Below are positions 3,427 through 50,612 of a stretch of DNA of 64,000 nucleotides, one piece after another. The notes beneath the pieces are model-generated. The model worked only from the letters and a program-made list of their open reading frames with translations. It was not told the DNA's origin and ran no database searches. A program made the translations under genes and the position numbers. The number at the start of each line of letters is the position of its first letter. Position 1 is the first letter of the stretch. The stretch is from Eledone cirrhosa (lineage: Eukaryota): contig OZ024741.1 in NCBI GenBank assembly GCA_964016885.1, positions 290,966,001-291,030,000 of the forward strand. Direction: 5' to 3'.

Positions 3427-3592
3427 CGTGTTCTGAATATTCTGAAGCTTGAGCTCTTACTTTTCCATAAGGACCAAGTTCTATATATTCATCAGTACAT
3501 CGCGATCTAATTAGTACCTTCTGTGGTGTTTGAAACTCTCGGTTAATTTCACTGCGTTTATGACTCTCCAGGTAATCAGAATAATTGTAAGA
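3427..3592 (-). CDS. FGF8/17/18: FGF8/17/18-family ligand, first core exon (SYNYSDYLESHKRSEINREFQTPQKVLIRSRCTDEYIELGPYGKVRAQASEYSEH+G)
   Basis: 166-nt open exon between a pyrimidine-tract TAG acceptor and a G|GTAAGT donor (phase 0 to 1). It aligns by eye to FGF8 PNFTQHV...[32 protein letters not shown]|A, including the N-x-S/T sequon and the phase-1 intron position. Confidence 0.85.
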
Positions 3593-5760
3593 CTATATCA
3601 GAGACAGAGATAGAAAGATAAAAGATAGACTGAGACAAAGAACATTGCAATATATACATACATTCACACACATGTACATATATATACTTACAGATAGGCG
3701 CGTATACTATACATATATTTACGTATGTATATTTATATATATATGCGCGGCATATATATTAAATATATTTCAAGAGGAATATGATGATGTGGTTTTAGAT
3801 TGTGTTTTGCTCTAGAGAAGCCCTAATTAAACAGACCTATGTTCAAAGGTATTTCAGAAGTAATCAGCATGTCTTTCTCTCGAACACAATTTATCAAGGA
3901 ATACGTTGTCGTTCCTCTTAATTCTACGACGGTATAGTATGATTTTAGGATGCATTTCCCTGCATATGTATCATTCTTAATCTTCAATATATATTTATTT
4001 TAAAAAGAGCTCATACTCTTTCACGATATATTAAGATAATATTGATTCCTAACGATTTAACACAGAAAATACACTAGATTATAAGCAGAACGGTAAAATT
4101 CATGTCGGCGAGATTTGTTCTCAGAAAGTGAACAGCCAAAATTATTGCCAGAAGAAAAAGTCACGAATCTACTACAATAGTAAAAACAACGAAAATAACG
4201 TCTAATAATTTTAGGTAATATAAAATTGATTAAATCGACCCCTAGTATGTGAGTGGCATTTCATGTTATCGGTCCCAGAAGGATAAAAGACAAAGTTGAC
4301 CTCGATGGGATTTGAGCCTGAACAATTAGTTCTAACGGCGAACATTATCAAGTGTTCTTTTCGAGGACGGTAGAGTCTGATTTGAAAGAGATTGGTTATT
4401 TCTTTAGCGGGTCGGATTCTCTATTTCTCTATTTATTTATTTATTTATTTATTTATTTGATAATCATTTTTATTGGTTGAATTCTTGCGATCAGCTTCAC
4501 AATTTACATTTTGTTGTTGTTATTGTAGTTCTTAATTTTATTGGTGCTGGTGGTGTTGTGTTGTTGTTTGGTTGTTGTGGATTAGATCAAGGTCAGCAGT
4601 AATGCAACAGATCCAATGTTTTCTACCAATGACAATCCCATATTTTCATTTTTTTTATGTATAATTTTTCTTATCCCAGAATAATTGTGGTACCCAATCA
4701 GGGTTTGTGCGTTTGAGTTCAAATTTCACCCCCGTCTGCCAGTATTTGCGACCAGCAGACAGCATCAGCAATGGAAGTTCAAATAGAAATATTTTTTTTT
4801 TTTGTCCAATCTAACCATCGATTTCTTTTCCGCTTATTCTTTGCAGATCATACACTGGGAGTTCGAGTCCTAGAAAACAGTTTCAATTCATGACCAGAAT
4901 AGTTTTGCCCCATTTCATCCTTTTTTACGAAAATGAAAATTATTACCAGAACACTTTCACACGAGTACACAAAATATCCAGTCTTCAATTTAACAAAAAT
5001 AGATTAATTTGGCTTCAAAAAGATACCCTCAAAACATTTTCTTTAGCTCCATCAGTTTCACGGCGTGATATAAATCAAATATAATTGTTTCTCGAATGGA
5101 AAGTTATAAGACTACCACAACTGAGGAAAGAGAAAATGCAACGAAACATGGGTTGAAACAACGTTACGTGTCTCGGCAACGACATGGTCTGTATGCTTTA
5201 CGTATATTCAATGTCTACTCTTATTCCGAAGAATTCTTCCCTGAAGACGGAATTTAAATTATTCTAATGTTTCGAAATAACTATATGTAATTTGTTTAAT
5301 GATTTCTCTGAATTGATAATTTATTAGTATATTTTGATATTCTTACATTGATATATCTGAGTATTTGAGACAAATACCATTTCAATTTATTTATTTAGAG
5401 AGAGAGATATCAGGATCTTAATAGTTTTCAACCGCGTGTATGTGTGTGTGTGTGTGTGTGATGTATACCAAGTGTTGCAATTTTATATACATATACTACG
5501 TGCCGTGAATAAAATAAGCCATATGTAAATTCAGAAATTCAAAAGCAACAACAGCAACAAATTTTAACAATGTTAAAAGTGAGTAAGTTAGCGGTAGACT
5601 ATGTTAATAGAGAGGCATTTGAAAGTTTTCAGCTTTAGCAAATAATCAAGAAACAAACAAACATGCAGCATATATTATGTATACATTCTTTGGCTTCCAA
5701 ACCACTAAACTATTTAGAATTCCCGAAGCAACAGTCGCACGCACTCACACACACTTAAAC

Positions 5761-5796
<36 letters not shown>

Positions 5797-7066
5797 GTAT
5801 GTCACTTGCATACGTATACATAAGGTGGATATATATGTTTATACATGTGTGTGTGTGTGTGTGTGTGCGTGCGCGTGTGCGTGTGCGTGTGCGTGTGCGT
5901 GCGCGCGTAAGTGACAAATTGCCAAAATTGTTAGAGTTAGCTGGATTGTCTTGCGATATTTGCTTATGCCCATCTCGAGGTGCGAACTTTGCCTTCCATG
6001 CATTCTATTTCACTAGGTATCATTATATAATCGGCTGAAATAAATTGTATTGCAGTATTTATTCATACTCTCTGCAATCTAATTTGAACTCTGCCGTGCT
6101 CAAATTTGCCTTTCATCTATCCGAAGTCGATAAATGAGGTACTCAGATATGGCTATGGAAAGACGGAATTAGTTAGAGAATCAGAAGACATCAAGCTCAG
6201 AATCTGTTCAATCCCTTTGTGTTCTAAACATAAATTCCATCTTCTAACCATATGCATAGTTAAAATATAACAACAACACTGATAGAAAGCAGGAAGTCTT
6301 ATTAGTTTCGCTATATATATAGATAACGATTGATCTAATGAAGAGGCTCCGGTTACTTTATTTTTTTCTAATCAATCTACATAATGTCTTCCCTTTCTTA
6401 AACGGTGGCCTATATCAGGACGATGCACTCTTCACATTTCACTGCAATAAATGAAACCTAGAAGAAACAAAAAGGCACGTACATATCCTACAGACATTTT
6501 ATTCCTTTGAAGCTTAAAATCATATCGCATAATGCTTTTGGAACTCCGTGGCTTTTATTTCTGACATTTGTTTATCGCATGCCTACATGGTAATCAGACT
6601 ATTATTCCACAAATCTAAAAGTTTATTTCCTGGTGAGATGTTTGAAATGCAATTCCCATTTTGTCGTTTTAATTAAATAATTAATAATTTGCAAATAGTT
6701 ACAGATGTTTACAATTGCAATTCAATGAATTGAAACGATCTTAAAAATCAATAAATTAATTTGAATTCCATAGAAACTTTGGTTATTCCCGTAAATTGCT
6801 TGCTTGCTTGCGCGCACACACAAAAGAAAGAAAGAGAAATCGAAGGTCCAGTTCAAAATATCTTATTTTTATTCACGCAAAAGACGCGATTTTCGAAGAA
6901 AATATGTATGAAACTTCGGTATCTCTCTTAATATGCATATTCTGCCAAGACAAAACAAAACATCTTTTGGTGTTAATCCACATTTTTAACCCTGAGTATG
7001 CATTTCAAGTAAAAGCATAGAGTTCTGAAACAGGCGACAGATGGTTACATTTGGAAATATATATAT

Positions 7067-8210
7067 CTAGGGCGGGTAAAATTCCCGAGATCCATGGACG
7101 AGTTCTCTCCAGCGGTCTCTGTCCCTCATTATCGCTGCCATGTCCTGCGTCTCCAACAGACCAGTGTCTGTCCTTAGGGCATCAACATACGTTAACCTTG
7201 GTCTTCCTCTTCCAGTGTGTCCATGTAGGGGCTCCCACAGGAGCACTGAGTGCAATATCAACTCTGGATGTCGGTGATCATGTCCAGCTAACCTCAGTTT
7301 CCTCCGTGTCACTTTTGAGCTGACATTTGGGAGGCTCCCATAGAGCTCTGAGTTTTTCATCCTCAGGGTATACTGATTAATGTTCAGAGCTATCCTCAGC
7401 ATTCTCGTGTAGCACCCATCCACCATCTGAGTGAGTTTCTTGGTCAGTGTCCAAGTCTCAGACCCGTACAGCATCACAGACTCCACTACAGCAATGAAGA
7501 GGCGGATTTTCAGGTCTTTACGAAGGTCCGACTTCCACACCGATCTCTCAACCACATCATCATCCGTATTCCCAATCTTTGCTCTCAAATACAGGAAGTC
7601 CTCAACCAACTCTAGCGGCTTCCCGCCTACATTAGTGATCCACTCTGGCTTCTCAACATTCTCTCCCAGATATTTTGTTTTAGTCTCATTCATTCTTAGC
7701 CCCACACTCATCGACAGTCTCTCAACCTCCTGCATCAAATCCTCTGTCTCCTTCACTGTATTTGTCACCAAAACTATGTCGTCGGCAAATTCAGCATCTG
7801 ATACCTTTTTCGCCTTAACTCTCTTGCTTTGAGCCGGTGCTACAGTAAAGTCAGAGTCCTGGTGGCTTCAGAGAGGGAAGATCAACCACCAGTCACATCC
7901 TGATGCTGAGGAGGATATTAGAGGGAGCTAGAGCAAAGTGCCTTCCTGCGGTCATGGTTTTCATTGACTATAAGAAGACCTTTGATTCTGTGGACCGTCA
8001 CTTCCTCATGAAGATCTTACAGGCTTATGGAATCCCCAAGAAGATAGTGGACCTGATATCACTGCTCTATACCAACACCAATGCCCAAGTCATTACACCT
8101 GATGGGATGACAGTTCTTTGAGATACTGGCTGGAGTGCTCCAGGGAGATACATTGGCTCCCTATCTTTTTATCATCGTAGCGGACTATTGTATGCGCCTT
8201 GCACTGGAGA
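7067..8210 (-). mobile_element. RTE-clade LINE, 5'-truncated with an inverted 5' segment
   Basis: Minus 7863-7067 encodes AEFADDIVL...MLYGSETWTL...LRLAGH...GRGRPRLTYVD, then a stop and (AT)n. Plus 7864-8210 encodes the preceding RT part FIDYKKTFDSV...GVLQGDTLAPYLFII, with a frameshift near 8115. Both ends abut (TA)n. Confidence 0.93.
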
Positions 8211-8457
8211 ATATATATATATATATATATATATAATAAGGAGTTGATGGACCCAGCATATTTATTAATGCCAGGACTGGTTGTATCTCAGCGCACTCAA
8301 TGGGCAATGTAAGATACATTCCCAGAATATACACATAGTTATTCGCTTTAATACAATACACGTAACACGGGTGCCTATAATAGTTCCCGGACTCGAGTTT
8401 CGGCCGCACTTAATGCAGCAGTAAGGTGCACTGCACCATCCGTCTGCATATAGTATG

Positions 8458-8501
<44 letters not shown>

Positions 8502-8814
8502 GTAGAATTGCTTGAGGAGGAGTGCTCTACATAAAATGAATACATTTAGATAAAATAGCGTAAATCTGCAATGTATCAAAACTTCATATATTTCTTCATC
8601 CCTCTATGCGCATGTTCAGAAAGAAGTTAGTGAAGAAGCCACTATGAGCTCACCGATGATGCTAGAAGTATCAGTTATACCTAGTTTAAAACACACCATA
8701 CTCCTTTTAAAATCATACTTGGGTGATATAATTTAGATTACTCTATCGTAAAAGAAAAGACAGGATGGTCTATCTTTACACTCATAACTGAAAGCGGAAG
8801 AAAAGTCTCCGATT

Positions 8815-8895
8815 ACACACACACACACACACACATACATACATACATACATACATACATACATACATACATACATACATACATACATACATACA

Positions 8896-8941
<46 letters not shown>
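8815..8941. repeat. (CA)n(CATA)n(TA)n compound microsatellite
   Basis: Direct reading. Confidence 0.95.
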
Positions 8942-10869
8942 ATAGGCTAAGGAAAACATCTGTCCGTGCTTCTCTTTATTTTGGTAATAAATCCATTTAC
9001 ATTTTTCTTATGGAAATCAGGGTGTTATGTTCTGAGGACTAGACTAGCAAAACATCCCAATGTGGTCCTTTATATCAGAGATCGATAAAATACATATTAG
9101 GCACAAATCAGTAACTGTGTTAATACGTTCAATTAAATCTCTTAAAGACGTTGCCTCGGCATGCATGCAGTCCAATGATAACATACAGTAATATATATAT
9201 ATGACTGTATTTCTGTCCGCTTGATTCAAGTTATGTGCTTTGGTGCCAGATGGTGATAGCATAGTCTGTGTTTTGTGCAGGTTATATTGATAAGTGGCAA
9301 CTGTGTTGAATGGGAAAGGCGTTATAGGTTGTATTATAACGAGGAGTATCGGTTATGAGTAAACGACGAATAAGATAAGTTGTTAGGGCATCGGTTAAAT
9401 TTTCTTGTTTTATATTTCCCAGCTCTCTCTCTCTGCTCCGAGATCATATCCTGCCAAGTTTAGAATTGCTTTTCGTTCTTACAGTAGTCGACAGAGAAAA
9501 TAAAAACCAGGCCGACGAATTGGAGACATTTTTAGAGTTTTGGACGAAATAACTCGCGTAATCTCTTCCTTCCCGTTGCATTCTGTGTTCAAATTCTACA
9601 TCTAGCATCGGGCATCGTTTGGTTGGATATAAATGCATCCATAAAAACTTGGTTAACCGGGAGTAACCTTCCAAATAAACAATCTGAAACGGTGTATTTG
9701 GCAGATATACTAATTTCATTCGTTGTAAGTGGATATTTTTCGGAGCAGTGATTGCTGTCAGGTGGGAGCAAGTGGCGTAAAGTGTAGTCGGAGAGTGTGA
9801 GTATGTGAGTTCTGTTTCAAGATAGCAGAATAATCACTCAGAATGGAAGGCAGTCAGGGGTCTTGCGTTGCACCAGAAATGTTTGATACCAATGAATGCA
9901 ACATTTACATTTAACTTAATAGATTTTTCTAACCCTGTGTTTCATCTACTGGAAATATCAGTCAAATCTCACACTAGCGTCATAACTAAAAAAGAAAACG
10001 TGAACTACCGTCATTTCACTGACGCTTAAATGACGTGGTGGTCAATTGTGGAGAGCTCTTAGTCATTGATCGGCTAGATTACTGTTCATCAGAATCAATA
10101 ACAAATGTTTCTAAACTATGAACACTCATGCAAAATGTAGGATGTTTTATCTCATGTCGTAAATGAATATATACAGTCAGCTATATAACCATACACCAAA
10201 CATTCACAGAAATATCTATATACATACACCACTACACACATCCATACACGCAAATACTGTGTGTGCGCGTATGTATGTAATATATATATATAAGAAAATA
10301 TATACTTTGTGTGTATGCTTTTAAAAAATGATAAAAGCAAATAAATTAAAAAGAATCTCAAAATAATAGTGCAATACATTAATGTACAAAATAATAAAAT
10401 AATTTAAAAGTTGGATTAACGTATGTGTACATGTGTGTTGGTTTATGTGCAGTGATTGAGTGTGCGTGTATGTATAATAGATAATGTAATCTTAGATTAA
10501 CCACAGCTGTAATTGCATGCTATATTTTACAAATGATCTTATGATTTTTTTTTATGCTCAAAATTCACAGATTATTCAAAAATTCAAGTCATATAATCAT
10601 GCCATTCATATATTATTTCGTAATATGCACGTCATATGTCAAGATAGTATGCACACAATGCCCCATGCCATGCTATACAGTTTCATGCAAGTATATTGAA
10701 TATTTCATGCACCTTTTCTGATCGCTCCTATGAAATCTTTTGACATTATTTTACCTGTGCTTATATATTATAATATTACTCCCAGCAATGCTGCAGAAGC
10801 ATTAATTTATGTTCCTCCATTTTTCTCTATCATTGCCTCCAATTTTGCTCCTCTGAAATCGAACTTAAA

Positions 10870-11565
10870 GCATCATCATCACCAATACCACCACCACAAC
10901 CATCACCACCAGTGTCAAATGTCACCAAGTGTCATCATCACCCAATATGACAAGAAAAGCATGGCCTTGAATATAATATACAACACCGAGAACTAACAAA
11001 CAACATGACTTACTACAACAACAGTCCGCATCTTACAGTCTATTACCAACTCTACTACCGTCTGCTCTACCAATAGAAGAACCATCTCATCAGTAGAAGA
11101 GCCACAGCAGCAATTAACATCAGCAGCAAAAATTTCCGTAACATTAAAAACACCAAAAACAACAATACCATCACCAACAACAAAAGCAACAACATAATCA
11201 GCAGCAACACACCACCAGCCTCACCCAAAGCAAAAGCAATAGCAATAATAACGACACACCACCACCACCATCAGGCAACAGCAACATATCATCAGCATCA
11301 CCAAAAGCAAATAACAGCAACACAACAATCACCAACAACAAAAGCAAGAACAAAACACAGCAGCAACACACCACCACCAAAACACCAGTATCGTATTACC
11401 CACCACCAAACAACAAAAACAGTAACACATCACATACAAGAACAACAACCAGAACAATCACGACAGCTAGCAATATCATAATGAACAGTACGAACAATAA
11501 CAACAGTCAACAAACAACAAACACCATACAACAAAAACAACACCAATACCGCCATGACTACACAA
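10870..11565. repeat. Degenerate CAA/CAC/CAG low-complexity tract
   Basis: Direct reading. Confidence 0.85.
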
Positions 11566-12054
11566 ATAAATGGTTGTCAGCGTATCAAAAATAATGATGA
11601 GGATTGAAATAATTCACTTCCTTACAACACCACCATCATCACGTCTACGTAATACTGTTGTCTCATTCAATAATAAGCCAAAATATAGTTGTGTGGTTCT
11701 GTGTATATGTAGATGCTTTCGAAGTAATACATATCACTATATACAACAGTGCCTAACAGAATCACAAACACGGGCATCCAGAGAATTATGAAGTTTAAAT
11801 AAATTGGTATAGCCACATATTTCTCCGTCTTTCTTGGTTATTGAATATGATGAAAGTTCTGAAACCATAAATTATTGTCAATAAACCTTCTTCGACTGCT
11901 ATTGTATTCTGAACACCTTTTTTCTATATATATATATATATATATTATACATATATATATATAACAAAGAAAGTGTGGTAAGAAACCAGGTGTACCATAA
12001 CGAGCCAGAGTACTCGATACTTAGGGTAGTAGAGTAGGTAATAGGAAAAGAGTC

Positions 12055-12148: not shown

Positions 12149-13042
12149 CTCTCCCCCTCTATATTATATATATATAGTCAGTGTGCGTGCGGGTGAGTAG
12201 GTGTGCGCACGTACGTGCGGGTATATCTCCCTGTAGCTGCATTATTATTAATGATGGCGGTATTTGTAATCATGACGGTAACTGTTGTTTTAGTTGAAAG
12301 TATACACACATACATATAGATATATATTCTAACACACACACACACACACACATCCACATAATTTATACATGAAACTCCGGACTATACCATTGGAATGGTT
12401 GCATATACTCGGTTACGTCCAGCCAGATACAGCCGTTCTTTCTTCTAGAATAAGAAAAAAAATACAAAAAAAAAAACGAAATAGCAAGGGTCTTATGCAT
12501 ACAATGTCGAGGATTATTATTGTTATTATTATTAATTTATATTATTATTATTATTATCATTGTTGTTATTATCGTTAGATATTAGAATATGGCACGAGTT
12601 GAAAATTATTCTTTAGTATATTAGGATTTGAAGAAGGGGAAAAAACACGCTGATAAGCAACATTATATATTATGTTTAGCTTTCGGACCGATATTCAGAG
12701 ACTTACAGAAATATAACAACATTAGAAATGGAAAGTTAATTCTGTAAGCAGCTCCGAAAACGATACATGATCATTTTCTAAGAATTATTTCAAATACATT
12801 TATATTCTCTACTATATATTATTGCATACATATTTGAAATGCTCCTTTGTCTCGTAATATATATATATATATATATAAAATAGTGTGTGTGTGGTGTGTG
12901 GTATGTGTGTGTGTATGTTCAATCTAATTCTATTAGTTATATCTACTAATCTAATATATACATTTTATTAACGCTAAATAGTGAGTCTTGTTACTCTGGA
13001 GATTCGCCTGTTTATTACAGGGTCAGCATCCGTCAACCACAT

Positions 13043-13077
<35 letters not shown>

Positions 13078-13985: not shown

Positions 13986-14018
<33 letters not shown>

Positions 14019-14025
14019 AATATAA

Positions 14026-15325: not shown

Positions 15326-15357
<32 letters not shown>

Positions 15358-23917: not shown

Positions 23918-23978
23918 AAGAACATTGATATCTGACTGAACCAGCACGAATACGAAAGGCAGCAACAACCACAACAAC
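23918..23978 (-). CDS. FGF8/17/18: FGF8/17/18-family signal-peptide exon (g+LLWLLLPFVFVLVQSDINVL)
   Basis: 61-nt exon with strong acceptor tttttcctctctgctttgcag and donor gtgagta. Phase 2 to 0, like FGF8 exon 1B. Hydrophobic core ends in VQS|D, a plausible cleavage site, and it splices in frame to 3592. Confidence 0.8.
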
Positions 23979-24107
23979 CTGCAAAGCAGAGAGGAAAAAT
24001 TTATTTATACAAAACATAAAAGACAAGAAAGAATATATCCCTATAATTAACTGAAATTTGAAGTGAACTGAGGAAAATTTGTCTATGTATTTTACTATTG
24101 AGGAAAC

Positions 24108-24287
24108 AATTGTTTCTACTTTTGGCACAAGTCCAGCAATTATCCCAATGTATTACTGGTACTTTATTTTATCGACCCTGTAAGGATGAAAGGCAAAGTT
24201 AACCTCGGCGGGATTTGAATTCAGACCATAAAGGGCCGTAACTCTTTGCTGCAAAGGATGGCGTCCGACCCTCTACTGCCAAACCAC
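24108..24287 (-). mobile_element. SINE family A
   Basis: Reverse complement of the family; TSD-like tgaggaaa(c/t)aat; lies ~130 bp upstream of the signal-peptide exon acceptor. Confidence 0.9.
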
Positions 24288-26824: not shown

Positions 26825-27985
26825 AGTGAGAAAGAGGGGAAGAGAGGGGAAGAGAGGGTAGAAGTCAGAATTAGAGAAAGTGAGACAGGAAGAGTAGAAG
26901 ACAAATTAAGAGAAATAGGAAAAGTTAACTTCATACATGACGAATGAGAGAAGAGGGAGAAGAGATAATGAGAGAAGAGGGAGAAGAGATAATGAGAGAA
27001 GAGGGAGAAGGGAGAAAGAGAACAGGGAGAGCGAGAAGGGAGAGAGACGAGGGAGAAGGGAGAGAGACGAGGGAGAAGGGAGAGAGACGAGGGAGAAGGG
27101 AGAAGGGAGAAAGACGAGGGAGAAGGGAGAGAGAGAAGAGGGAGAAGGGAGAGAGAGAAGAGGGAGAAGGGAGAGAGATAAGAGGGAGAGAGAGACGACG
27201 GAGAAGGGAGAGAGAGAGACGAGGGAGAGCGAGAAGGGAGAGAGAGAAGAGGGAGAGCGAGAAGGGAGAGCCAGAGAGAAGGGAGAGCAAGACAGAAGGG
27301 AGAGCGAGAAGAGAGAGTTGAGGGAGAGAGAGATGAGGGAGAGAGAGATGAGGGAGAGAGATGAGGGAGAGAGATGGGGGAGAGAGAGAAGGGAGATAAA
27401 AGAGATAAAAGAGAGGAGGAGAGAGATAAAAGAGAGGAGGAGAGAGATAAAAGAGAGGAGGAGAGAGAGAAGAGAGATGGAAGAGAGAGAGAGAAGAGAG
27501 ATGGAGGAGAGAGATAAGAGAGATGGAGGAGAGAGATAAGAGAGATGGAGGAGAGAGAGAAGAGAGATGGAGGAGAGAGAGAAGAGAGAAGGAGGAGATA
27601 GAGAAGAGAGAAGGAGGAGAGAGAGAAGAGGGAAGGATGAGAGAGAGAAGAGGGAAGGATGAGAGAGAGAAGAGAGAGAGAAGGCTGAGAGAGAGAGACG
27701 AGAGAGAGAGACGAGAGAGAGAGAGACGAGAGAGAGAGAGTGACGAGAGAGAGAGACGAGAGGGAGACGAGGGAGGGAGACGAGGGAGGGAGGGAGACGA
27801 GGGAGGGAGGGGGGAGGGGGAGACGAGGGAGGGAGGGGGAGGGGGAGACGAGGGAGACGAGGGAGGGAGAGAGACGAGGGAGAGACGAGGGTGAGACGAG
27901 GGAGAGACGAGGGTGAGACAAGGGAGAGACAAGGGAGAGAGAGAGAGAAAGAGAAAGAGAAATAGAGATCGGAAAGGAGGGACAC
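26825..27985. repeat. Polypurine GA-rich compound repeat
   Basis: GAGACGAGG / GAGAAGG units; source of the S/L/P and E/R ORFs. Confidence 0.95.
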
Positions 27986-29089
27986 AGATAGAAATCCGGA
28001 GGTAGTGTATATGATGTGGAAGTACTATGTTTAATTATAAATTGGATCAGGCATCAAACGTGGAAAGAAACGGAATGCCAATCGAAGGTAGTTATTGCAA
28101 CGGTGTCATCAACCAGGGTACGGCACCTTTGACATTAGTATTACATATTAGTAGTACTAACCCCATTAAAATATACAAAAAGAAAGGCTAGTCATGCCGG
28201 ATTAGCAATCCAACATTGTTCTGCTCGATCAATGATCACCTGGGCCTAACTAAAACAACTATATTTTGAAAACAACGCAACGAATGAGTGATCCTCTGAT
28301 TGTGGTTCCCAAAAGGTGCACTGCAGCACTGTGTTATGCGGCGAGTTGAAGATAGGTACGGGGCAGATATATCAATATGTAGCGTACACATTGCCATTAT
28401 CTTCGTACCCAGAAAAACCATAAGCTACTGTCTTTATGGATTTCAAAGCCAACAGACATTTCATCAGCTAACAAATCAACTTATGCTCCTATATACGTCA
28501 ATTATTTTCTCAAATACAATATATATACAATTATCCATCGTAGAGAACAAATATCTGAATAGCTAGTAAGAATTTATAAGACATATAAAAATAAATAATA
28601 AAATTGTGAAATACGGTTTGAATATTTATAAGAAATATAGAATGCTACAGAAGATATTGAAATATGGAAAATATTGATTTGTTCTCTAACCTTTATGTGA
28701 ACAATATGTCCGTTTCTTCACAAAATTGCTAGACTGGCTAGCGGAAGAGACAAAAAGTGATTTTCAGTTTAATGATATATACATAGTCAAATCTCATTCA
28801 TATTTCGATCTACAGTTATAAAAGTGGCTTATCAATTCGTCTGGTCGGCGATGCACGCCAATATAAACAGGATTACACTTATGCAGAATCAGACAGAAAT
28901 ATACAGACAAAACATATAGGGAAAAAACAATCATAGTGGCCAATTGAGATTATATATAGTGAATAATAATTAACACTGAGATCATGTGAGCGGTAAGGGA
29001 AAAATGCTGATTCGGATAATTATGCTACGTTAGACAATTTTACCTACATCATTATCAGAAGTAGATAGAATAAGTTCCAGTCAAATAAT

Positions 29090-29275
29090 TGTTTTTACTT
29101 TAGGCACAAGGCCAGCAAATTACCCAGTGCATTACTGGTACTTTATTTTATCGACCCCCGTAAGGATGAAAGGCAAAGTCAACCTCGGCGGGATTTGAAC
29201 TCAGATCGTAAAGGGACGTAACTATGGTGGAAAGCATGGCGTCCGACCCTCTACCGATGCTGCCAATCCACCGCC
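29090..29275 (-). mobile_element. SINE family A (subfamily 1)
   Basis: Full copy flanked by taagttccagtcaaataat on both sides. Confidence 0.92.
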
Positions 29276-29294
29276 TAAGTTCCAGTCAAATAAT

Positions 29295-29480
29295 TGTTTC
29301 TACTTTTAGCACAAGGCCAACAATTACCCAGTACATTACTGGTACTTTATTTTATCGACCCCGTAAGGATGAAAGGCAAAGTTAACCTCGGCGGGATTTG
29401 AACTCAGAATGGCAAGGGCAGTAACTCTATGCGTCAAAGCATGGCGTCCAACTCGCTACCGATACTGCCAATTCACCGCC
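29295..29480 (-). mobile_element. SINE family A (subfamily 2)
   Basis: Full copy flanked by gttccagtcaaataat; diagnostic aatggcaaggg...ctatgcgtcaaagc segment shared with the 56968 copy. Confidence 0.92.
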
Positions 29481-29631
29481 GTTCCAGTCAAATAATGGCG
29501 GATCGAATGGATTATATTCATTTTTCTTGAGAGGGTCGTGGGAGCAGAGTTCTCAGACACGCCTTTGATAGGGTCCTATCAGAAATATCCCTTTTCAAAT
29601 GACTGCTGGATCACCAGTATGACAGTCAGAG

Positions 29632-35258: not shown

Positions 35259-37079
35259 TGTAGTAGTAGTAGTAGTGGTGGTTGTAGTGGTAGTAGTGGT
35301 GGTTGTAGTGGTAGTAGTGGTGGTTGTAGTGGTAGTAGTGGTGGTTGTAGTGGTAGTAGTGGTGGTTGTAGTGGTAGTAGTGGTGGTTGTAGTGGTGGTA
35401 GTGGTAGTAGTGGTGGTGGTAGTGGTAGTAGTGGTGGTGGTGGTAGTAGTGGTGGTAGTAGCGGTGGTGGTGATAGTTGTAGTAGCGGTGGTGGTGATAG
35501 TTGTAGTAGCGGTGGTGGTGGTGATAGTTGTAGTAGCGGTGGTGGTGGTGATAGTTGTAGTAGTGGTGGTGGTGGTGATAGTTGTAGTAGTGGTGGTGGT
35601 GGTGATAGTTGTAGTAGTGGTGGTGGTGGTGATAGTTGTAGTAGTGGTGGTGGTGGTGATAGTTGTAGTAGTGGTGGCGGTGGTAGTTGTAGTAGTGGTG
35701 GCGGTGGTAGTTGTAGTAGTGGTGGCGGTGGTAGTTGTAGTAGTGGTGGCGGTGGTAGTTGTAGTAGTGGCGGTGGTAGTTGTAGTAGTGGCGGTGGTAG
35801 TTGTAGTAGTAGTGGCGGTGGTAGTTGTAGTAGTAGTGGCGGTGGTAGTTGTAGTAGTGGTGGCGGTGGTAGTTGTAGTAGTGGTGGTGGTGGTAGTTGT
35901 AGTAGTGGTGGTGGTGGTAGTTGTAGTAGTGGTGGTGGTGGTAGTTGTAGTAGTGGTGGTGGTGGTAGTTGTAGTAGTGGTGGTGGTGGTAGTTGTAGTA
36001 GTGGTGGTGGTGGTAGTTGTAGTAGTGGTGGTGGTGGTAGTTGTAGTAGTGGTGGTGGTGGTAGTTGTAGTAGTGGTGGTGGTGGTAGTTGTAGTAGTGG
36101 TGGTGGTAGTTGTAGTAGTGGTGGTGGTAGTTGTAGTAGTGGTGGTGGTAGTTGTAGTAGTGGTGGTGGTAGTTGTAGTAGTGGTGGTGGTAGTTGTAGT
36201 AGTGGTGGTGGTAGTTGTAGTAGTGGTGGTGGTAGTTATAGTAGTGGTGGTGGTAGTTATAGTAGTGGTGGTGGTAGTTATAGTAGTGGTGGTGGTAGTT
36301 ATAGTAGTGGTGGTGGTAGTTATAGTAGTGGTGGTGGTAGTTGTAGTAGTGGTGGTGGTAGTTGTAGTAGTGGTGGCGGTAGTTGTAGTAGTGGTGGTGG
36401 TAGTTGTAGTAGTGGTGGTGGTAGTTGTAGTAGTGGTGGTGGTAGTTGTAGTAGTGGTGGTGGTAGTTGTAGTAGTGGTGGTGGTAGTTGTAGTAGTGGT
36501 GGTGGTAGTTGTAGTAGTGGTGGTGGTAGTTGTAGTAGTGGTGGCGGTAGTTGTAGTAGTGGTGGCGGTAGTTGTAGTAGTGGTGGCGGTAGTTGTAGTA
36601 GTGGTGGCGGTAGTTGTAGTAGTGGTGGCGGTAGTTGTAGTAGTGGTGGCGGTAGTTGTAGTAGTGGTGGCGGTAGTTGTAGTAGTGGTGGCGGTAGTTG
36701 TAGTAGTGGTGGCGGTAGTTGTAGTAGTGGTGGCGGTAGTTGTAGTAGTGGTGGCGGTAGTTGTAGTAGTGGTGGCGGTAGTTGTAGTAGTGGTGGCGGT
36801 AGTTGTAGTAGTGGTGGCGGTAGTTGTAGTAGTGGTGGCGGTAGTTGTAGTAGTGGTGGCGGTAGTTGTAGTAGCCGTGGTAGTTGTAGTAGTGGTGTTG
36901 GCGGTGGTAGTGGTGGTGGTGGCGGTGGTAGTTGTAGTAGTGGTGGTGGCAGTGGTAGTTGTGGTGGTGGCGGTGGTTGTAGTGGTGGTGGCTGTGGTAG
37001 TTGTAGTAGTAGTAGTGGTGATGGTTGTAGAAGTAGTGGTAGTCTCATCAATATTTGTAGTGGTAGCAGCAGTTGCAGC

Positions 37080-37272: not shown

Positions 37273-37321
<49 letters not shown>

Positions 37322-40868: not shown

Positions 40869-40911
<43 letters not shown>

Positions 40912-42457: not shown

Positions 42458-42555
42458 TTAACTTTGCCTTTCCTCCTTACGGGGTCGATAAAATAAAGTA
42501 CCAGTAATACACTGGGCAATTGCTGGCCTTGTGACTAACGTAGAAACAATTATTA
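42458..42555 (+). mobile_element. SINE family A, 5'-truncated
   Basis: Core and tail only. Confidence 0.85.
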
Positions 42556-44043
42556 TATATATATATATACATACATATACATATATATAAGAGAGAGAGA
42601 GATAGAGCGAGAGATATTTCGTCTACCAAACTCCACTCACAAGTGCAGAACTAAACGTTTATCATATTTATGTTTCAATTCTTTACTTTAAATCTATGGT
42701 AGAATTCAAGGTACCACACCGTAGGAACGAACCCGGTACCACATGCCTATGGAGTGTAAATCTTAACTAGGCAACCTATAGTGTCAATTGTTAATTACTT
42801 TTAACAAGATGTATTCGTATCTAGCGCTATTTGCTTCCTTCTCACTGTTTTGTCATGATTGAGGTTAATATGTGGGCATCAATTTTCACTTGTAATTTGA
42901 CCATCCATATCATATATCGTACGTGATAATAATGCTGTACTTGGTCACCATATGGTGATATCTTTTCTTTCCTTATCTCCTCTGACGGATTCACGAGTTT
43001 CTTAAATGTCTGTGTCTCAGAAAAAAATTGTAACACATACTAATTTGTGTCCTTTATTAGCCAAACACACGGCCAGAAATACACTAGTATCTGGTTTAAT
43101 CGCTCGAATGACACTACATACATGTATACATGTCAAGTAAGATAGAATCTCTTATCGATCTCAACAAGAATGTAAAATTGATACCAGAAGGTTCTGATCA
43201 CTTAGTGTATAAGGATGCAATATAATATATTTAGCTTCAATCCATTGTACTCAAGTCTATGCAAACTTGTTGAACTAAATACGTGTAAAGCATTTCGTCC
43301 GAAGTTCTAAAGATTCTGCCAACCCACCGATGATAAAAATATCAGTTCCTATTCTCTCACAAACATACCTGTTGATACACTTCCAAACATAAACGCCATC
43401 CACGTGTAGCCAAGACGCATTACGTCAAAGTTATACTACCGACATGGACAGAGAAACATTGAAAACTACACCAATCGAGATATGAGCTTTTTGCCTACTT
43501 CAAGAGCAATCACGGCACGCACTAGAGGTACCCAACCTCCACTAGTTTTGAAATTAACTGCAAAAGGCTATAAAATTTGCTTAGCTGAACTTTGATACTT
43601 GACTGGTGATTATTTAATCGAATCCTGGAAAATATAATGTAAAGTGTTGTTTGACAGGAATTAAACACAGCAAGTAAAGAAATGAAAGCAACACATGATA
43701 AACGACAAAGAAATATTTAGAAAATAGATATTATCGCGGCGTATACCTCTGACCATATATTCCGTCACGTCTCGACATTGCTACTAAAAACAAAGTGCTC
43801 AACGCAGTATGTAAAGAAAAGTATATTTACGTATGCATGAAGCACTTATACAAACAGTGACTTAATGTTTTCACAGCCAAGACATTTCATTTAATATGTT
43901 TCGATTGTACCAATCTTTTTAGAACTGATACACACGTGTGTACGATCAGATACAAGCAAACTATCATCTCCCTCACACACACACACACACACACAAGGCA
44001 GACAGATAAATGGATAGATAGACAGATTCAGAGAGGCGGAGAG

Positions 44044-44205
44044 AGAGTGAGTGGGTGAGAAAGAGTGAGTGGGTGAGAAAGAGTGAGTGGGTGAGAAAGA
44101 GTGGGTGGGTGAGAAAGAGTGGGTGGGTGAGAAAGAGTGGGTGGGTGAGAAAGAGTGGGTGGGTGAGAAAGAGTGGGTGGGTGAGAAAGAGTGGGTGGGT
44201 GAGAG
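44044..44205. repeat. 18-bp minisatellite gagtgggtgggtgagaaa
   Basis: About 9 copies. Confidence 0.93.
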
Positions 44206-44437
44206 GGCTAGAAAGTGTGAGAGGGTGAGAAAGAGTGAGAGGGAAAGAGTGAGCGGGAAAGAGTGAGAGAAAAAGTGAGTGAGAAAGAGTGTAAGCGAGT
44301 GTGTGTGTAAGCGAGTGTGTAAGTGTGTGTGTAAGTGTGTGTGTAAGTGTTGGGTATTTCCGTAGAAAGGTAAAGGAAAGAAGAGTGCTCTATGTATAGT
44401 ACAGAGCTATTTAGTTATCTAATAACAATATAACTAT

Positions 44438-44446
<9 letters not shown>

Positions 44447-44472
<26 letters not shown>

Positions 44473-44511
44473 TAAAGCGGGAGAGAGAAAGAGCGAGAGA
44501 GAAAGAAAGCG

Positions 44512-44542
<31 letters not shown>

Positions 44543-44706
44543 GAGAGAACGAGAGAGAGAACGAGAGAGAGAACGAGAGAGAAAGAGAGAACGAGAAAAA
44601 GAAAGAGAGAAAGAGAGTAAGAGAGAGAAAGAGAAAAAAAGAGAAAGAGAAAGAGAAAAAAAGAAAGGAGAAAAAAGAGAAAGAGAAAAAAAGAGAAAAA
44701 GAAAAA

Positions 44707-44737
<31 letters not shown>

Positions 44738-44838
44738 AAGAGAGAAAGAGAGAAAGAGAGAAAGAGAAAGAAATAAAGAAAGAAAGAAAGAGAGAAAGAG
44801 AGAAAGAAAGAACGAGAGAAAGAAAGAACGAGAGAAAG
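44447..44838. repeat. GA/GAAA polypurine tract
   Basis: Direct reading. Confidence 0.93.
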
Positions 44839-45387
44839 CTGTACATGTGCGCCACAATACATATCTCTGATAACCTAGATATATAAAAGCTCTCTAAATT
44901 TCATTGAGCGTGCTCGATAAGATATATTAGAATTGATTAAATCACTTAAGAGCGACGAAAACAAAAGCTATGTGAATAGAATAGAAGGAAAGAAAAAGAT
45001 ACAAAATAAATGACAGAAGAAAGAAACAAAAAAAAAAACAGAAACAAACAACAAAATAGTTGTAGGTTCAAATTCTTTAGTCTACGTATTTGAAAAATTT
45101 CTCCATTGCTTCCGCTGGTTTGAGCTGACCTGACAACATTGTTTTGGCTTTTTCGACGGGTGTGTTGGGAGGGTATTTGCAACAACGGGTGTCAACGGGC
45201 GGGATGGGTTCCTGTCGTTCATAGCTATATGTTGTAAACTTGTCATCCAACTGCCGTTGAAGTTATCGGCTATATTCAGGAAGGCCACCAAGTAATGCTA
45301 TCTATGTCGTTAGTTTTTCAAAGGTGTGGTAGCATCTGTACGCATATACTCGTGTACGAGGTTGTGTTTGCGTATGTATGAATATGC

Positions 45388-45436
<49 letters not shown>

Positions 45437-46058
45437 TAGAACACACAGAGAGCGCGACACACGCACATATATATATAGACGAAAAGGTTCAGGACCCCGA
45501 AGGCTTAGTTCGGACCTAGCTGTTGAAATGGCCGGAGTTCAGTCGTCGGGGTCTTGAACCTTTTCATATTAGCCTCTGTATCGAGTACTCTGCTGGGTTA
45601 TGTTCCACCTGGTATCTTACCACACACACATATATATATATACACACACAACTTCATATACATACATACATACATAGAGTTGGGGTTAGATGTAGATACA
45701 CACACACATTTTATTTATATATCCATATATATAATGCACGAAACTTTATTGCCCAAGGGTGGCTAATGAGGAAACTAGATGCTTCACGTTTTCTCTCTCA
45801 AACCCTCTCTCTTCTTTCTTGATGAAAGTCTATTTCCTTTCCTCTCACTACCTTGGACCGTGTCTTGCCCTAATTCCAATCGTAAAACTTATTTGATTAC
45901 GTATTCGCTTTGATCTTCTAACAGAAATAAACTCGCTTACTCTCCTCCATATCTATTTTGTTGTGTTGACTCATATGCATCTTTTCGGCAACTTTTTCTA
46001 AGCCACCGGGATTCAACATTATGCAATTCGCCATTTTGCACGAAATTGCATTGCCCCC

Positions 46059-46060
<2 letters not shown>

Positions 46061-46112
<52 letters not shown>

Positions 46113-46165
46113 AAGAGTGAGAGAGAGAGAGAGAAAGAGTGAGAGAGAGAGAGAGAAAGAGAGAA

Positions 46166-46252
<87 letters not shown>

Positions 46253-46410
46253 GAGAGGAAGAAAGAAAGAAGAGAAAGAAAGAAAGAGAAAGAAAGAGAG
46301 AGAGAGAGAGAGAGACAGACAGAGAGAGAGAGGAAGAAAGAAAGAAGAGAAAGAAAGAAAGAGAAAGAAAGAAAGAGAGAGAAAGAAAGAAAGAGAAAGA
46401 GAGAGAGATA
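46061..46410. repeat. (GA)n/(GAAA)n tract
   Basis: Direct reading. Confidence 0.93.
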
Positions 46411-46418
46411 GCTATTTT

Positions 46419-46453
<35 letters not shown>

Positions 46454-46508
46454 AAATAAGGTTATATTGTTTGACTTAGCAGAAACTGCTGGACGCTGGA
46501 GAGAATAG

Positions 46509-46617
46509 GGCGGCAGATTGGCAGAGGGTCGGACGCCATGCTCTGCAGCATAGAGTTACGGCCCTTTATGGTTTGAGTAAAAAGTCTCGCCGAGGTTACT
46601 TTGCCTTTCATCCTTAC
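46509..46617 (+). mobile_element. SINE family A, 3'-truncated
   Basis: Head plus start of the core. Confidence 0.85.
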
Positions 46618-46770
46618 AAGGATGCGTGTCAGTAATTACACACACACGAGAATTGGTACGGAGGCAGCCCTATTTATATATATATAACAGAATTTTATTT
46701 CTCGTCTTAGCACAGCTGATACATAAATGTAAGTATGCGCACACACACACAGGTTATACCGAACATTAAT

Positions 46771-46944
46771 AATTATTTCTACTTTTGGCACAAGGCCAGC
46801 AATTAACCAGTACATTACTGGTACTTTATTTTATCGACCCGTAAGGATGAAAGGCAAAGTTAACCTCGGCGGGATTTGAACTCAGACCGTAAACGGGCAT
46901 AACTATGCTGGAAAGTATGGCGTCCGACTCTCTACCGATACTGC
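46771..46944 (-). mobile_element. SINE family A
   Basis: Near full-length reverse copy. Confidence 0.9.
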
Positions 46945-46969
46945 GAAATAATGTCCGATTCGTTTGTAA

Positions 46970-47235
46970 ACAAACGGCCCGATTTGAAGCTGTCCCATGT
47001 GACCGATCGTCACCTGTTCGTTCAACACTGGCTTTGAGGAACAATCAACATGTTTCTGGGTCATTATTCTTCACCAGGGCTGTAAACCTCTGCCAGTCTG
47101 TTGAACGGTTGAAAATATATAGTATTTTATTAAGTACACCTCGGCTGAATAGCCTCATTTGCATACCGAGCGAGTGTTGAACAAAGAGGTGTCGAACAGT
47201 CACCGACACGACAGCTTCAAATCGGGCCATTTGTC
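46970..47235. mobile_element. MITE/fold-back element with ~60-bp imperfect TIRs
   Basis: ggcccgatttgaagctgtc...ttcaacact versus agtgttgaa...gacagcttcaaatcgggcc. Confidence 0.7.
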
Positions 47236-47347
47236 TTTAGAATATGAATTTAAATTCAGCGACGCACAGGACAGAGGACATGGGGCTATCAGCCGGTCCG
47301 TCATTTTTTCCATTCTCTTCCTCCCGTACGACCCATATTTTGAATTC

Positions 47348-47393
<46 letters not shown>

Positions 47394-47589
47394 AGAGAGA
47401 GAGACAGATAGAGAGATAGAGATAGATAGAGAGAAAGAGAAAGAGAGATAGCTAGATAGAAAGAGAAAGAGAGATAGCTAGATAGAAAGAGAAAGAGAGA
47501 TAGCTAGATAGAAAGAGAAAGAGAAAGAGTGGAAGAGAGAAAGAGAGAGAGAAAGAGTGGAAGAGAGAGATAAAGAGAGAGAAAGAGAG

Positions 47590-47622
<33 letters not shown>

Positions 47623-48734
47623 AAGAGAACATGAATTTTACACACAAAGCATATTTGGACTGGGCGCTATGATAAAGATGCCAAAATGGTACGCCGATGA
47701 AACATTTCTGGGATCTCACGACTAGCCACTGACAATATGGCGGCAAAATTAAGATTACACCACACTGACACAAGTATGTTATATATTAGCCATGTGAAGG
47801 AGGCATAATGGCCACAACATATTTTACTGTAAGAGAAAAGATGAGAAATATTTGCTCAGAATAGTATCAAATATTAAGGCCCCACCAGTATCACCACCAT
47901 CACCACCACCATCATCAACGTCTTTTTCATACATATATAATAGTTCACGAAGAATTGTTGATGTTTTCAACATGGACACCTGTTATAAAAACCTATTAAA
48001 CACTGACCTAGAAATTTCCTCATTGTGAATAAATAGAATAAATTACATAACATTGGTAGCAGCATAACTATATAAAGTTCCCTTTGGTTATCACTGACCG
48101 TGAGTTTGCACTTGCAAAGATTCCTCTCCAAGGCGCAAGCATTTCAGTCTCCCTTCTCCACTCCACTGATACTGTCCAAGGAATTGGAAACAGGCTGATA
48201 CAAGATACAATTTGGCACCAATATTGCCAAAATGCATGCTTTCCAGCAGAATGAACAAAAGTAACTTGAATAAAAGTGCCATGCTCAAAGACACAACATG
48301 CCACCTGTTCTGAGAATCTAGCGCAAAGTCTTAAGTTACTGAGCCATAGTGTGTAGTTAACCGCTTGGGTTTAAGCTTAAACATTTCCATGTAGGTTGAT
48401 TCATATTGTAAAATATACGACTTTCTTTTCGTTTCTTTGCTATACATGAAGTATGGTTAACGTATAGTGTAAATAAAAGCACAGCGTATAACAAAAAAGA
48501 GAGGTATGTCATACATGATGAATTTCAAGAGGATTAATGATGAGCAATGGATAGTCAGAGTAGTTAACACACAAGACAAAGGCTTAGAAATATATTCGGT
48601 CTCTTTCCATTTTGAGTTCAAATCTCTCGATACAATCAACTAGCAAGCAAGTACTCTGAGATCGATATAATCAACGTCCCTTCCCTCCAAGATTACTGAC
48701 TTTATGCCTATATTAGAAATCATTATTGCTTACA

Positions 48735-48776
48735 ATGCAGTGGGTAATTGCTGGCCTTTTGCCTAAAGTAGAAACA
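48735..48776 (+). mobile_element. SINE family A tail-only insertion
   Basis: 42-bp 3' end with 13-bp TSD attattgcttaca (48722-48734, 48777-48789), inside the tail of an older decayed SINE. Confidence 0.8.
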
Positions 48777-49030
48777 ATTATTGCTTACACTAGCATACAT
48801 GTAAATAAGTAGTAAAAATTACTGAACAAGAGAGAAAAATGTATGATAATGATTAACAGAACGTGACGTTGTCATTATGTGTTGGCTCTATGTTGGTGTG
48901 TCTATACATACATACATGTTTATGTATGTGTGTGTATATATATATATATATAAGTTAATATTAACCTGATGACTTACACTCCTTGTTTGTTTATATATAT
49001 ATATGTATATATACACACGTGTATTCACAC

Positions 49031-49099
<69 letters not shown>

Positions 49100-49897
49100 C
49101 ACACACACACACATATACATATTTTATTTTTATATTGTATATTTACTATGGTATACATATACTAAACCAATACACTTTTCACAGATTATATATATAACTT
49201 TTTTTTTTTTTTTGATAGATATGTGTGTGTGTGGTGTGTGTGTGGTGTGTGGTGTGTGGTGTGTGGTGTGTGTGTAATGCATTTAATTCTAATTGGAAAA
49301 AACACACACATACCGGTATGCGGGTATACACACTGCTTAAGTCGGATTATATTTAAAACTGTCGTCAGTAAATATATGAGGAAGTACGTACTACGTTAAG
49401 GTAAATATATTTCATACAGTAGTAAAATACCTTCAGTGCAACAAACAAGGTGCAGGGGACAGAAAAGATTTATAGAGCAGGGAGAGGTGTGTCACAGGTA
49501 GCCAGACGGGTGGCTGTCGTCTACCCAGCTAGATGGATTTGAAGTTAAAAATATATATATATACGAATTGACAGATATAAACACAGTATATGTGCGCGCA
49601 CGTGTGTAGTCTGTGTGTATGTGTGTATGTATGTGTAGACTGTGTCTGTAAAGATGAATAGAGCATTAGAAAGATAGACAGGTAGATAAATCGATAGAGA
49701 TAAGGATATGTCGATAGATATAATAGAAAGGTGGTGGACAGATTTATGTATTTACATACACCAAGTCAATAGAAAACGAACACTACATATATATATATAC
49801 GCACACACACATATCTGTATAAATGACCGAAAATAAAAAAAAATTCATTGTGGACTAGCCGGGAATGTAGACATACCTTGAGAGAGAGAGAGAGAGC

Positions 49898-49928
<31 letters not shown>

Positions 49929-50124
49929 ATAAATAGAGAGAGAGAGAGCTAGATAAATTTATTTATTAGCCACCAGGGCACAAAAGAAGGGGACAAATAC
50001 AAATGGGGAGTTTACATACAGGTATATGAAAATAAAACTTAATAAAATAACAAATAACAATTGAAATCCCCAATAGGGGGGAGGCGTGACACTGGGGTTG
50101 TACACATCACCGAAAAAATGTACA

Positions 50125-50580
50125 GATAGATAGAGAGAGAGGGAGGGAGATAGATAGATAGAGATAGATAGAGAGAGAGCTAGATAGATAGAGAGAGAGA
50201 AAGCTAGATAGATAGAGAGAGAGAGAGCTAGATAGATAGAGAGAGAGAGAGCTAGATAGATAGAGAGAGAGAGAGCTAGATAGATAGAGAGAGAGAGAGC
50301 TAGATAGATAGAGAGAGAGAGAGCTAGATAGATAGAGAGAGAGAGCTAGATAGATAGAGAGAGAGAGCTAGATAGATAGAGAGAGAGAGCTAGATAGATA
50401 GAGAGAGAGAGCTAGATAGATAGATAGAGAGAGCTAGATAAAGAGAGAGAGAGGGGAGAGCTAGATAAAGAGAGAGAGAGGGGGGAGAGCTAGATAAAGA
50501 GAGAGAGAGGGGGGAGAGCTAGATAAAGAGAGAGGGGAGAGCTAGATAAAGAGAGAGGGGAGAGCGAGATAAAGAGAGAT
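50125..50580. repeat. (GAGAGAGAGCTAGATAGATA)n minisatellite adjacent to the putative first donor
   Basis: Direct reading. Confidence 0.93.
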
Positions 50581-50598
50581 TGTATGTGAGATACTTAC

Positions 50599-50612
50599 AT
50601 GCATTTATACAT
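50599..50612 (-). CDS. FGF8/17/18: Probable FGF start exon coding part (ATG TAT AAA TGC AT| = MYKCM)
   Basis: ATG followed by a consensus CAT|GTAAGTA donor in phase 2, which matches the 23978 exon. In-frame TGA TGA lies just upstream. Only 14 nt, so a chance match is not excluded. Confidence 0.55.

What the first reader, a model, noticed from the sequence alone, without database searches (positions are those of the whole stretch)
3427..50612. Hidden spliced FGF8/17/18-family gene spanning >47 kb, not recovered by the ORF track
Seen: three minus-strand exons (14, 61, 166 nt) with canonical splice sites join in frame to MYKCMLLWLLLPFVFVLVQS-DINVLSYNYSDYLESHKRSEINREFQTPQKVLIRSRCTDEYIELGPYGKVRAQASEYSEH. 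Known: vertebrate FGF8/17/18 split the signal peptide with phase-2 and phase-0 introns and end the first core exon in phase 1. Inference: this is an invertebrate (probably cephalopod) ortholog that keeps the ancestral tiny-exon layout inside transposon-inflated introns, so it is easily mis-annotated.
Basis: partly seen in the sequence, partly recalled or inferred. Interest (0 to 1): 0.8.

Follow-up and report, generated by a model that had tools for sequence, protein, structure and literature searches.

The report
Octopod FGF8/17/18 gene with swappable starts
This is a real, intron-stretched octopus-type gene for the growth factor FGF8/17/18, already annotated in related octopuses, whose likely secreted product can begin from several alternative upstream exons; it is an ordinary family member with a modestly interesting splicing pattern.

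Summary
The gene is real and is the FGF8/17/18 ortholog of an octopod. The three stretches lie at the stated coordinates with correct splice signals. Two core exons lie left of the window. The product is 77-82% identical to annotated Octopus and Argonauta FGF18/8b-like proteins and groups with invertebrate FGF8/17/18 in a tree (98/88).

Contigs of one run that behaves as RNA join the 61-nt exon to a missed 57-nt cassette exon (12388-12444) and to two upstream exons right of the window. The 14-nt exon resembles an O. bimaculoides isoform start, but microsatellites give 15 look-alikes, so it is plausible, not shown. The gene spans at least 132 kb.

Annotated isoforms of snail, chiton and brachiopod orthologs also swap their start at the same point of the signal peptide. 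That is the only feature of note. Verdict: new member of a known family, low interest.

The parts
50599..50612 (-). Use not shown.
   Evidence: Consensus GTAAGT donor; single match in the genome; 4 of 5 residues match O. bimaculoides isoform X2, P0005. Against: 15 other MYxCM|GT sites in the 89-kb interval, mostly microsatellite-like; not among X4 partners.
23918..23978 (-). Shared 61-nt exon (phase 2 to 0): hydrophobic core and likely cleavage site of the signal peptide. Its two upstream partners seen in X4 lie right of the window: exon A (G000:C2:291079014-291079093, window-scale 113014-113093) and exon B (C2:291046629-291046757, window-scale 80629-80757).
   Evidence: Identical to three octopod proteins over 21 residues including the junction residue; covered exactly by an X4 contig; best 11-residue hydropathy 2.81. 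Exons A and B.
12388..12444 (-).
   Evidence: AG|...|GT, open frame; matches the insert of P0002 and P0003; X4 contig joins the 61-nt exon to it; absent from P0001 and P0006.
3427..3592 (-). First FGF core exon, 166 nt (phase 0 to 1): N-terminal helix and first strands of the beta-trefoil. The other two core exons lie left of the window: 101 nt at G000:C2:290950111-290950211 and 92 codons plus stop at C2:290946750-290947028.
   Evidence: 71% identity to P0001, E 2.7e-17; ortholog model has helix 61-67 and strands from 81. Downstream exons.

Best explanation
This is the octopod FGF8/17/18 gene, spread over at least 132 kb, and it likely encodes a secreted paracrine growth factor whose start is supplied by alternative upstream exons. 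Shown: exon coordinates, an intact 238-codon frame (exon A + 61 + 57 + 166 + 101 nt + last exon), three splice junctions in contigs of one run, family placement, and an FGF8/FGF18-like fold for the 82%-identical ortholog. Inferred: the signal peptide sends the protein into the ER and is cut after the V-Q-S of the 61-nt exon (judged by eye, no SignalP). The mature protein would be N-glycosylated (sequons at 60, 162, 214), bind heparan sulfate and the FGF receptor, and signal in mesoderm and neural patterning as in other spiralians. Exons A, B and possibly C swap only the signal peptide n-region, so the mature ligand would be unchanged. Exon B turns the exon-A frame into a 26-codon upstream frame and would lower output by decay or poor re-initiation. 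The 57-nt cassette adds 19 residues before the receptor-contact helix and would tune the ligand rather than switch it.
For: Orthologs at 77-82% identity named FGF18-like or FGF8b-like. Pfam FGF for the two full orthologs scanned, E 1e-17 and 2.6e-18. Best PDB sequence matches of the ortholog: FGF8b 2.6e-15, FGF18 4.1e-15, next 3.6e-10; best fold matches are the same two. Tree of 69 rows: inside a 30-row clade holding 5 named invertebrate FGF8/17/18 (98/88) and on the FGF8/17/18 side of a 100/98 branch; the genome's two other FGFs fall on the other side. Brachiopod fgf8/17/18 finds only this locus (1 match of 4 candidates). Junctions A>61, B>61 and 61>57 in X4 contigs. Isoform models of four lophotrochozoans diverge at the same point before the hydrophobic core. 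Expression of fgf8/17/18 linked to mesoderm and neuroectoderm in brachiopods and a phoronid (PMC8180254, passages).
Against: The octopod clade sits on a long stem (2.1 changes per column), the tree program warns of long-branch joins, and the outgroup has no named FGF4/5/6, 7/10/22, 9/16/20 or 11-14 member. Junction evidence is one run of one study, contigs only, not on record as RNA. Exon C and cassette skipping were not seen in this species. Secretion, cleavage, glycosylation, receptor binding and the effect of exon B are untested. The structure is of the O. bimaculoides ortholog, not of this protein.
Confidence: 0.93

Rival explanations
1. One reading: the 14-nt exon starts the protein and the 61-nt exon joins the 166-nt exon directly.
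For: O. bimaculoides X2 begins with a 4-of-5 match to the 14-nt exon peptide. This site is the only one of 16 MYxCM|GT sites with a GTAAGT donor and is single-copy. Cassette-less models exist in two Octopus species.
Against: X4 shows exons A and B upstream and the cassette downstream. Three of three relatives carry the exon-A peptide. X2 itself includes the cassette, so no model seen here combines C with skipping. X2's start could come from a microsatellite, as 15 look-alikes do here.
Confidence: 0.1
2. The core gene is real, but the extra upstream exons B and C are splicing noise from very long introns, with no regulatory role.
For: No ortholog model seen here carries exon B's in-frame start. 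It has 6 ATGs ahead of the in-frame one. The intron between A and the 61-nt exon is 89 kb and offers 44 ATG...GTRAG phase-2 candidates. The other species' isoforms are automated models.
Against: Exon B survived contig assembly, which drops rare forms, has clean AG/GTGAGT ends and is single-copy. Four species show alternative starts at the same point.
Confidence: 0.45
3. It is a divergent FGF of another subfamily, or a cephalopod-specific paralog drawn to FGF8/17/18 by long-branch attraction.
For: Long stem and long-branch warning; row set biased to FGF8/17/18 because most rows came from a search with the ortholog.
Against: Unbiased PDB searches by sequence and by fold rank FGF8b and FGF18 first. 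The genome's C28 FGF ranks FGF7, FGF9 and FGF1 instead, with no FGF8 or FGF18 among the 60 of 112 rows shown. It shares a cysteine pair with invertebrate FGF8/17/18.
Confidence: 0.04

Closest known systems
Octopus bimaculoides FGF18-like / FGF8b-like X1-X3 (XP_014774625-7), O. vulgaris CAI9736390, Argonauta hians GAB1607539
   Same: Same gene: 77-82% identity for the full-length models, identical signal-peptide exon, same exon-A peptide, same cassette position, isoforms with and without the cassette and with a short alternative start.
   Different: Exon B is not evident in any of the 6 octopod models seen. The O. vulgaris model leaves the family sequence inside the last exon and has an N-terminal extension matching the intron-like tract before exon A, so it is probably mis-modelled at both ends.
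Spiralian FGF8/17/18 (Terebratalia fgf8/17/18, Lingula, Aplysia, Pomacea, Liolophura)
   Same: Same clade; the brachiopod protein is the best non-cephalopod blastp match; shared extra cysteine pair; alternative starts at the same point of the signal peptide.
   Different: Only 24-30% identical to the O. bimaculoides protein; long octopod stem. None of the 9 isoforms compared from the three non-cephalopod species differs downstream of the signal-peptide junction, so no cassette is evident there.
Vertebrate FGF8, FGF17, FGF18
   Same: Beta-trefoil with an N-terminal helix; cysteines 136 and 154 invariant in 46 of 46 aligned rows. Mouse Fgf8 also has a skippable exon (1C) ahead of exon 1D (PMC11358489, passages). 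Intron phases 2, 0, 1, 0 are recalled, with indirect support from gene models.
   Different: The signal-peptide exon is 61 nt here against 37 nt (recalled). The acceptor of the first core exon lies about 5 codons further downstream than in FGF8b (alignment; the vertebrate boundary is recalled). The a/b switch, a 33-nt acceptor shift, has no counterpart seen: both octopod forms keep the helix. Alternative first coding exons are not a feature I recall for vertebrate members.

Membership tests
FGF family (PF00167) | FGF core domain over the Pfam cut-off | tested here: met
   Orthologs P0002 and P0003 score 64.8 and 66.7 bits against a cut-off of 24. The single 166-nt exon alone gives no Pfam match. 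The joined protein itself was not sent to Pfam; a local FGF profile matched all three core exons.
FGF family (PF00167) | Beta-trefoil fold | tested here: met
   Model of P0002 (82% identical): mean pLDDT 82.9; Foldseek top matches FGF8b and FGF18, target TM-score 0.80-0.91.
FGF family (PF00167) | Two introns inside the core domain | tested here: met
   Phase-1 and phase-0 introns flank a 101-nt exon. Two conserved core introns are described in bioRxiv 10.1101/2024.08.30.610304 (passages); their phases are recalled.
FGF8/17/18 subfamily | Groups with FGF8/17/18 in a phylogeny | tested here: met
   98/88 clade with 5 named invertebrate members; 100/98 split from FGF1, FGF2, FGF19 and the genome's two other FGFs. 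Long stem, incomplete outgroup.
FGF8/17/18 subfamily | Reciprocal best match with known members | tested here: met
   Last exon matches only FGF18 and FGF8b in PDB (2 of 2 rows); brachiopod fgf8/17/18 matches only this locus.
FGF8/17/18 subfamily | Cleavable N-terminal signal peptide | tested here: inconclusive
   Basic n-region, 13-residue hydrophobic core (hydropathy 2.81) and a small-residue cleavage pattern by eye; no SignalP on hand.
FGF8/17/18 subfamily | N-terminal helix with an aromatic residue at the FGF8b receptor-contact position (F32, recalled) | tested here: met
   A tyrosine of the ortholog aligns with that phenylalanine of 2fdb; helix 61-67 in the model. The same tyrosine is in the 166-nt exon here.
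FGF8/17/18 subfamily | Phase-2 then phase-0 introns splitting the signal-peptide region as in vertebrates | tested here: inconclusive
   Phases 2 and 0 are shown here. Vertebrate phases are recalled; three attempts to read or find sources failed. Vertebrate gene models break at a 12-residue hydrophobic block, in keeping with the recalled layout. Exon length and the phase-0 position differ.
FGF8/17/18 subfamily | Linkage to an Fbxw gene | tested here: inconclusive
   None of 47 F-box-like matches lies within 10 Mb (lower bound). The linkage is described as deuterostome-specific (PMC4729200, passage), so it is not expected here.
FGF8/17/18 subfamily | Heparan-sulfate-dependent activation of an FGF receptor | not testable with these tools
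   Needs a cell assay.

The most novel reading that the evidence does not exclude
Lophotrochozoan FGF8/17/18 genes keep an ancient plug-in point, a phase-2 intron just before the signal peptide's hydrophobic core, where several promoters or exons supply interchangeable n-regions. Octopods add a frame-stopping exon (B) that acts as a dose switch and a 19-residue cassette that parallels mammalian Fgf8 exon 1C. Morphogen output would then be set by first-exon choice in octopus, snail, chiton and brachiopod alike.
Probability: 0.25. Interest if true: 0.45.

Novelty: new member of a known kind. Interest (0 to 1): 0.2.

Why it matters
As a gene it is expected: spiralians have an FGF8/17/18, and octopod orthologs are already in the databases. 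The practical value is a correct model for a developmental ligand that profile scans miss and that one public model appears to get wrong at both ends. My paper searches turned up no study of this gene in a cephalopod (limited library, and the slash-written name could not be searched). If the alternative starts prove conserved and regulated, they would give a testable way in which invertebrates set FGF8 dose.

Tried and rejected
Pfam on the 166-nt exon alone: no match; PDB sequence search gave only designed beta-trefoils, none passing per stretch. PF00167 over the genome found two other FGF loci but not this one. Run search: no RNA holder listed; X4 was treated as RNA only because its contigs stop at exon ends and join distant exons. 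Junctions 50599>23978 and 23918>3592: not seen in X4 contigs, which cannot show absence. Contig depths were not used to rank isoforms. The idea that the C28 FGF is a second FGF8/17/18 was considered because of a similar C-terminal motif and rejected on the PDB ranking and the tree; it is a partial, long-branch row. O. bimaculoides X2 was first taken as proof of exon C and downgraded after finding microsatellite look-alikes that match it better. Fbxw linkage: nothing near. No non-repeat neighbouring gene was recognised among 72 flanking ORFs scanned, a subset of the 318 listed; short exons would be missed. The exon upstream of exon A was not found. Earlier scan notes: none. Three papers wanted for vertebrate exon structure, the FGF8b contact residue and the octopus FGF count were not held; the first two points are recalled. 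Phrase searches written with spaces for the slash name gave 0 papers and are uninformative. No supplements were read.
Full report
Observation. The window is G000:C2:290966001-291030000 of a 3.0-Gb genome. Coordinates below 1 or above 64000 continue the window's scale (C2 position = 290966000 + coordinate). The 14-nt piece alone is not beyond chance: 19 ATG-to-phase-2-donor candidates lie upstream of the 61-nt exon within the window.

Identity. The 166-nt exon found one protein among 18 candidates, O. vulgaris 'FGF8b-like X3', at 71% identity. With it, two more exons appeared left of the window: a 101-nt exon (phase 1 to 0) at -15889..-15789 and a last exon of 92 codons plus stop at -19250..-18972. 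Further orthologs are O. bimaculoides FGF18-like X1-X3 and an Argonauta protein. The joined 238-residue product is 82% and 77% identical to them. The organism is therefore an octopod by protein similarity.

Subfamily. The O. bimaculoides ortholog scores 64.8 bits on Pfam FGF. Its best PDB matches are FGF8b and FGF18 by sequence and by predicted fold. This genome's own last exon matches only those two at E<=0.01. Among 155 representatives found with the ortholog (150 listed), the best non-cephalopod blastp match to this protein is brachiopod fgf8/17/18, which in turn finds only this locus in the genome. In a 69-row tree (66 of the fetched proteins, chosen by me, plus three from this genome) the protein lies in a 98/88 clade with five named invertebrate FGF8/17/18. 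The two other FGFs of the genome fall with FGF1, FGF2 and FGF19 across a 100/98 branch. Caveats: long octopod stem, row set biased to FGF8/17/18, several subfamilies without a named member.

Relatives carry a 19-residue insert after the signal peptide; it maps to a 57-nt AG/GT exon at 12388-12444. Their usual start maps to exon A at 113014-113093, 49 kb right of the window, identical over 28 residues, coding from an ATG at 113066; its 5' boundary is inferred from an acceptor-like site, so a further upstream exon is likely. Run X4 is not on record as RNA, but its contig covers the 61-nt exon exactly while a contig of X1 reads through the introns. All three X4 contigs on that exon have loose ends: one leads to the 57-nt exon, one to exon A, one to a 129-nt exon B at 80629-80757. 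The two upstream contigs are 59 and 188 nt long, exactly the lengths expected if A splices either straight to the 61-nt exon or through B; A>B is thus inferred, not read. Exon B is single-copy, stops the A frame after 26 codons and offers an in-frame ATG behind six others. The gene spans at least 132,344 nt.

The 14-nt exon. O. bimaculoides isoform X2 starts with a five-residue peptide matching it at four positions. But (ATGT)n-type microsatellites spell nearly the same peptide: 16 such sites with a GT lie in the 89-kb interval, and several match X2 better. Only the site at 50612 has a GTAAGT donor, and it is single-copy. It was not among the X4 partners. I put its use as a minor start at about 0.6. 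The direct junction 23918>3592 was also not seen in X4, though two Octopus models have it.

How it likely works. Shown: anatomy, frame, three junctions, family, fold of the ortholog. Inferred: a signal peptide built from a variable n-region (18, 4 or 5 residues) and a shared hydrophobic core leads to secretion. The mature ligand has N-glycosylation sequons and four cysteines, and a helix whose tyrosine aligns with the FGF8b phenylalanine recalled as a receptor contact. It would act through the FGF receptor in mesoderm and neural patterning, as expression suggests in brachiopods and a phoronid (PMC8180254, passages). Upstream exon choice would change output, not the ligand. The cassette would tune the mature N-terminus; its position recalls mouse Fgf8 exon 1C (PMC11358489, passages), with no sequence likeness apparent by eye, so convergence is as likely as descent.

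Wider pattern. In 11 annotated isoforms from O. bimaculoides (2), Pomacea (2), Liolophura (3) and Lingula (4), the sequences differ only before the hydrophobic core. The junction residue is R in 8, and K, V or M in the rest, as a phase-2 junction would give (left out: a fragment, a truncated isoform, an unnamed extension, and octopod models sharing exon A). These are automated models and I did not see their DNA, so the phase is inferred.

Introns. Local self-comparison and tandem-repeat scans mark 43%, 20% and 18% of the three in-window introns as repeat, a lower bound. One reverse-transcriptase remnant lies at about 7070-8118.

Novelty. FGF8/17/18 is reported across spiralians including molluscs (PMC8224027, passages), and octopod orthologs are annotated. 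This is a new member of a known kind. Searches (listings only, except the passages cited) showed no paper on this gene in cephalopods or on its alternative starts, within a limited library. Interest 0.2.

Noticed in passing
P0002 positions 89 and 198 (window 3427-3592 and last exon): Two cysteines near the first and last strands co-occur in alignment A1: both in 30 of 46 rows, neither in 15 (including the rows that look vertebrate by recalled motifs), one in 1. They may form an extra disulfide in protostome FGF8/17/18; shared ancestry alone could give the pattern.
   Followed up: partly
G000:C28:72163550-72173704 (L001, L044): A second FGF gene; two core exons found. Its last exon ranks FGF7, FGF9 and FGF1 structures first and has a long Thr-rich then basic C-terminal tail. 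First core exon not found in 120 kb upstream.
   Followed up: partly
G000:C17:23691946-23693277 (L002, L003): A third FGF gene; two core exons found, outside the FGF8/17/18 side of the tree. Subfamily not settled.
   Followed up: partly
P0001 (O. vulgaris model): Leaves the family sequence at a point where this genome's last exon has an internal GT, and its N-terminus matches the pyrimidine tract before exon A: probably mis-modelled at both ends.
   Followed up: partly
window 7070-8118: Broken reverse-transcriptase remnant in the intron between the cassette and the first core exon, pieces on both strands.
   Followed up: no
window 24104-24147 and other places: Core of a very abundant short interspersed repeat: 12 matches in the window, 67 in 464 kb; a tandem pair of a 205-nt unit at 29071-29496.
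   Followed up: no
window 35263-37019: 1.76-kb tandem array of a 21-nt unit (80 copies, 89% matches) with strong strand skew; purine-rich arrays also at 26946-27961 and 44031-47628.
   Followed up: no
L030:7492-L031:1115 and L041:614-4072: Long open LINE-like frames with endonuclease and reverse-transcriptase domains upstream of exon A; a GIY-YIG frame in L032 and a DUF4371 frame in L005, inside the intron before the second core exon.
   Followed up: no
G000:C2, window-scale -25432..-25233 and 137899..138098: Two 200-N gaps flank the gene; the exon upstream of exon A could lie beyond or within the right one.
   Followed up: no
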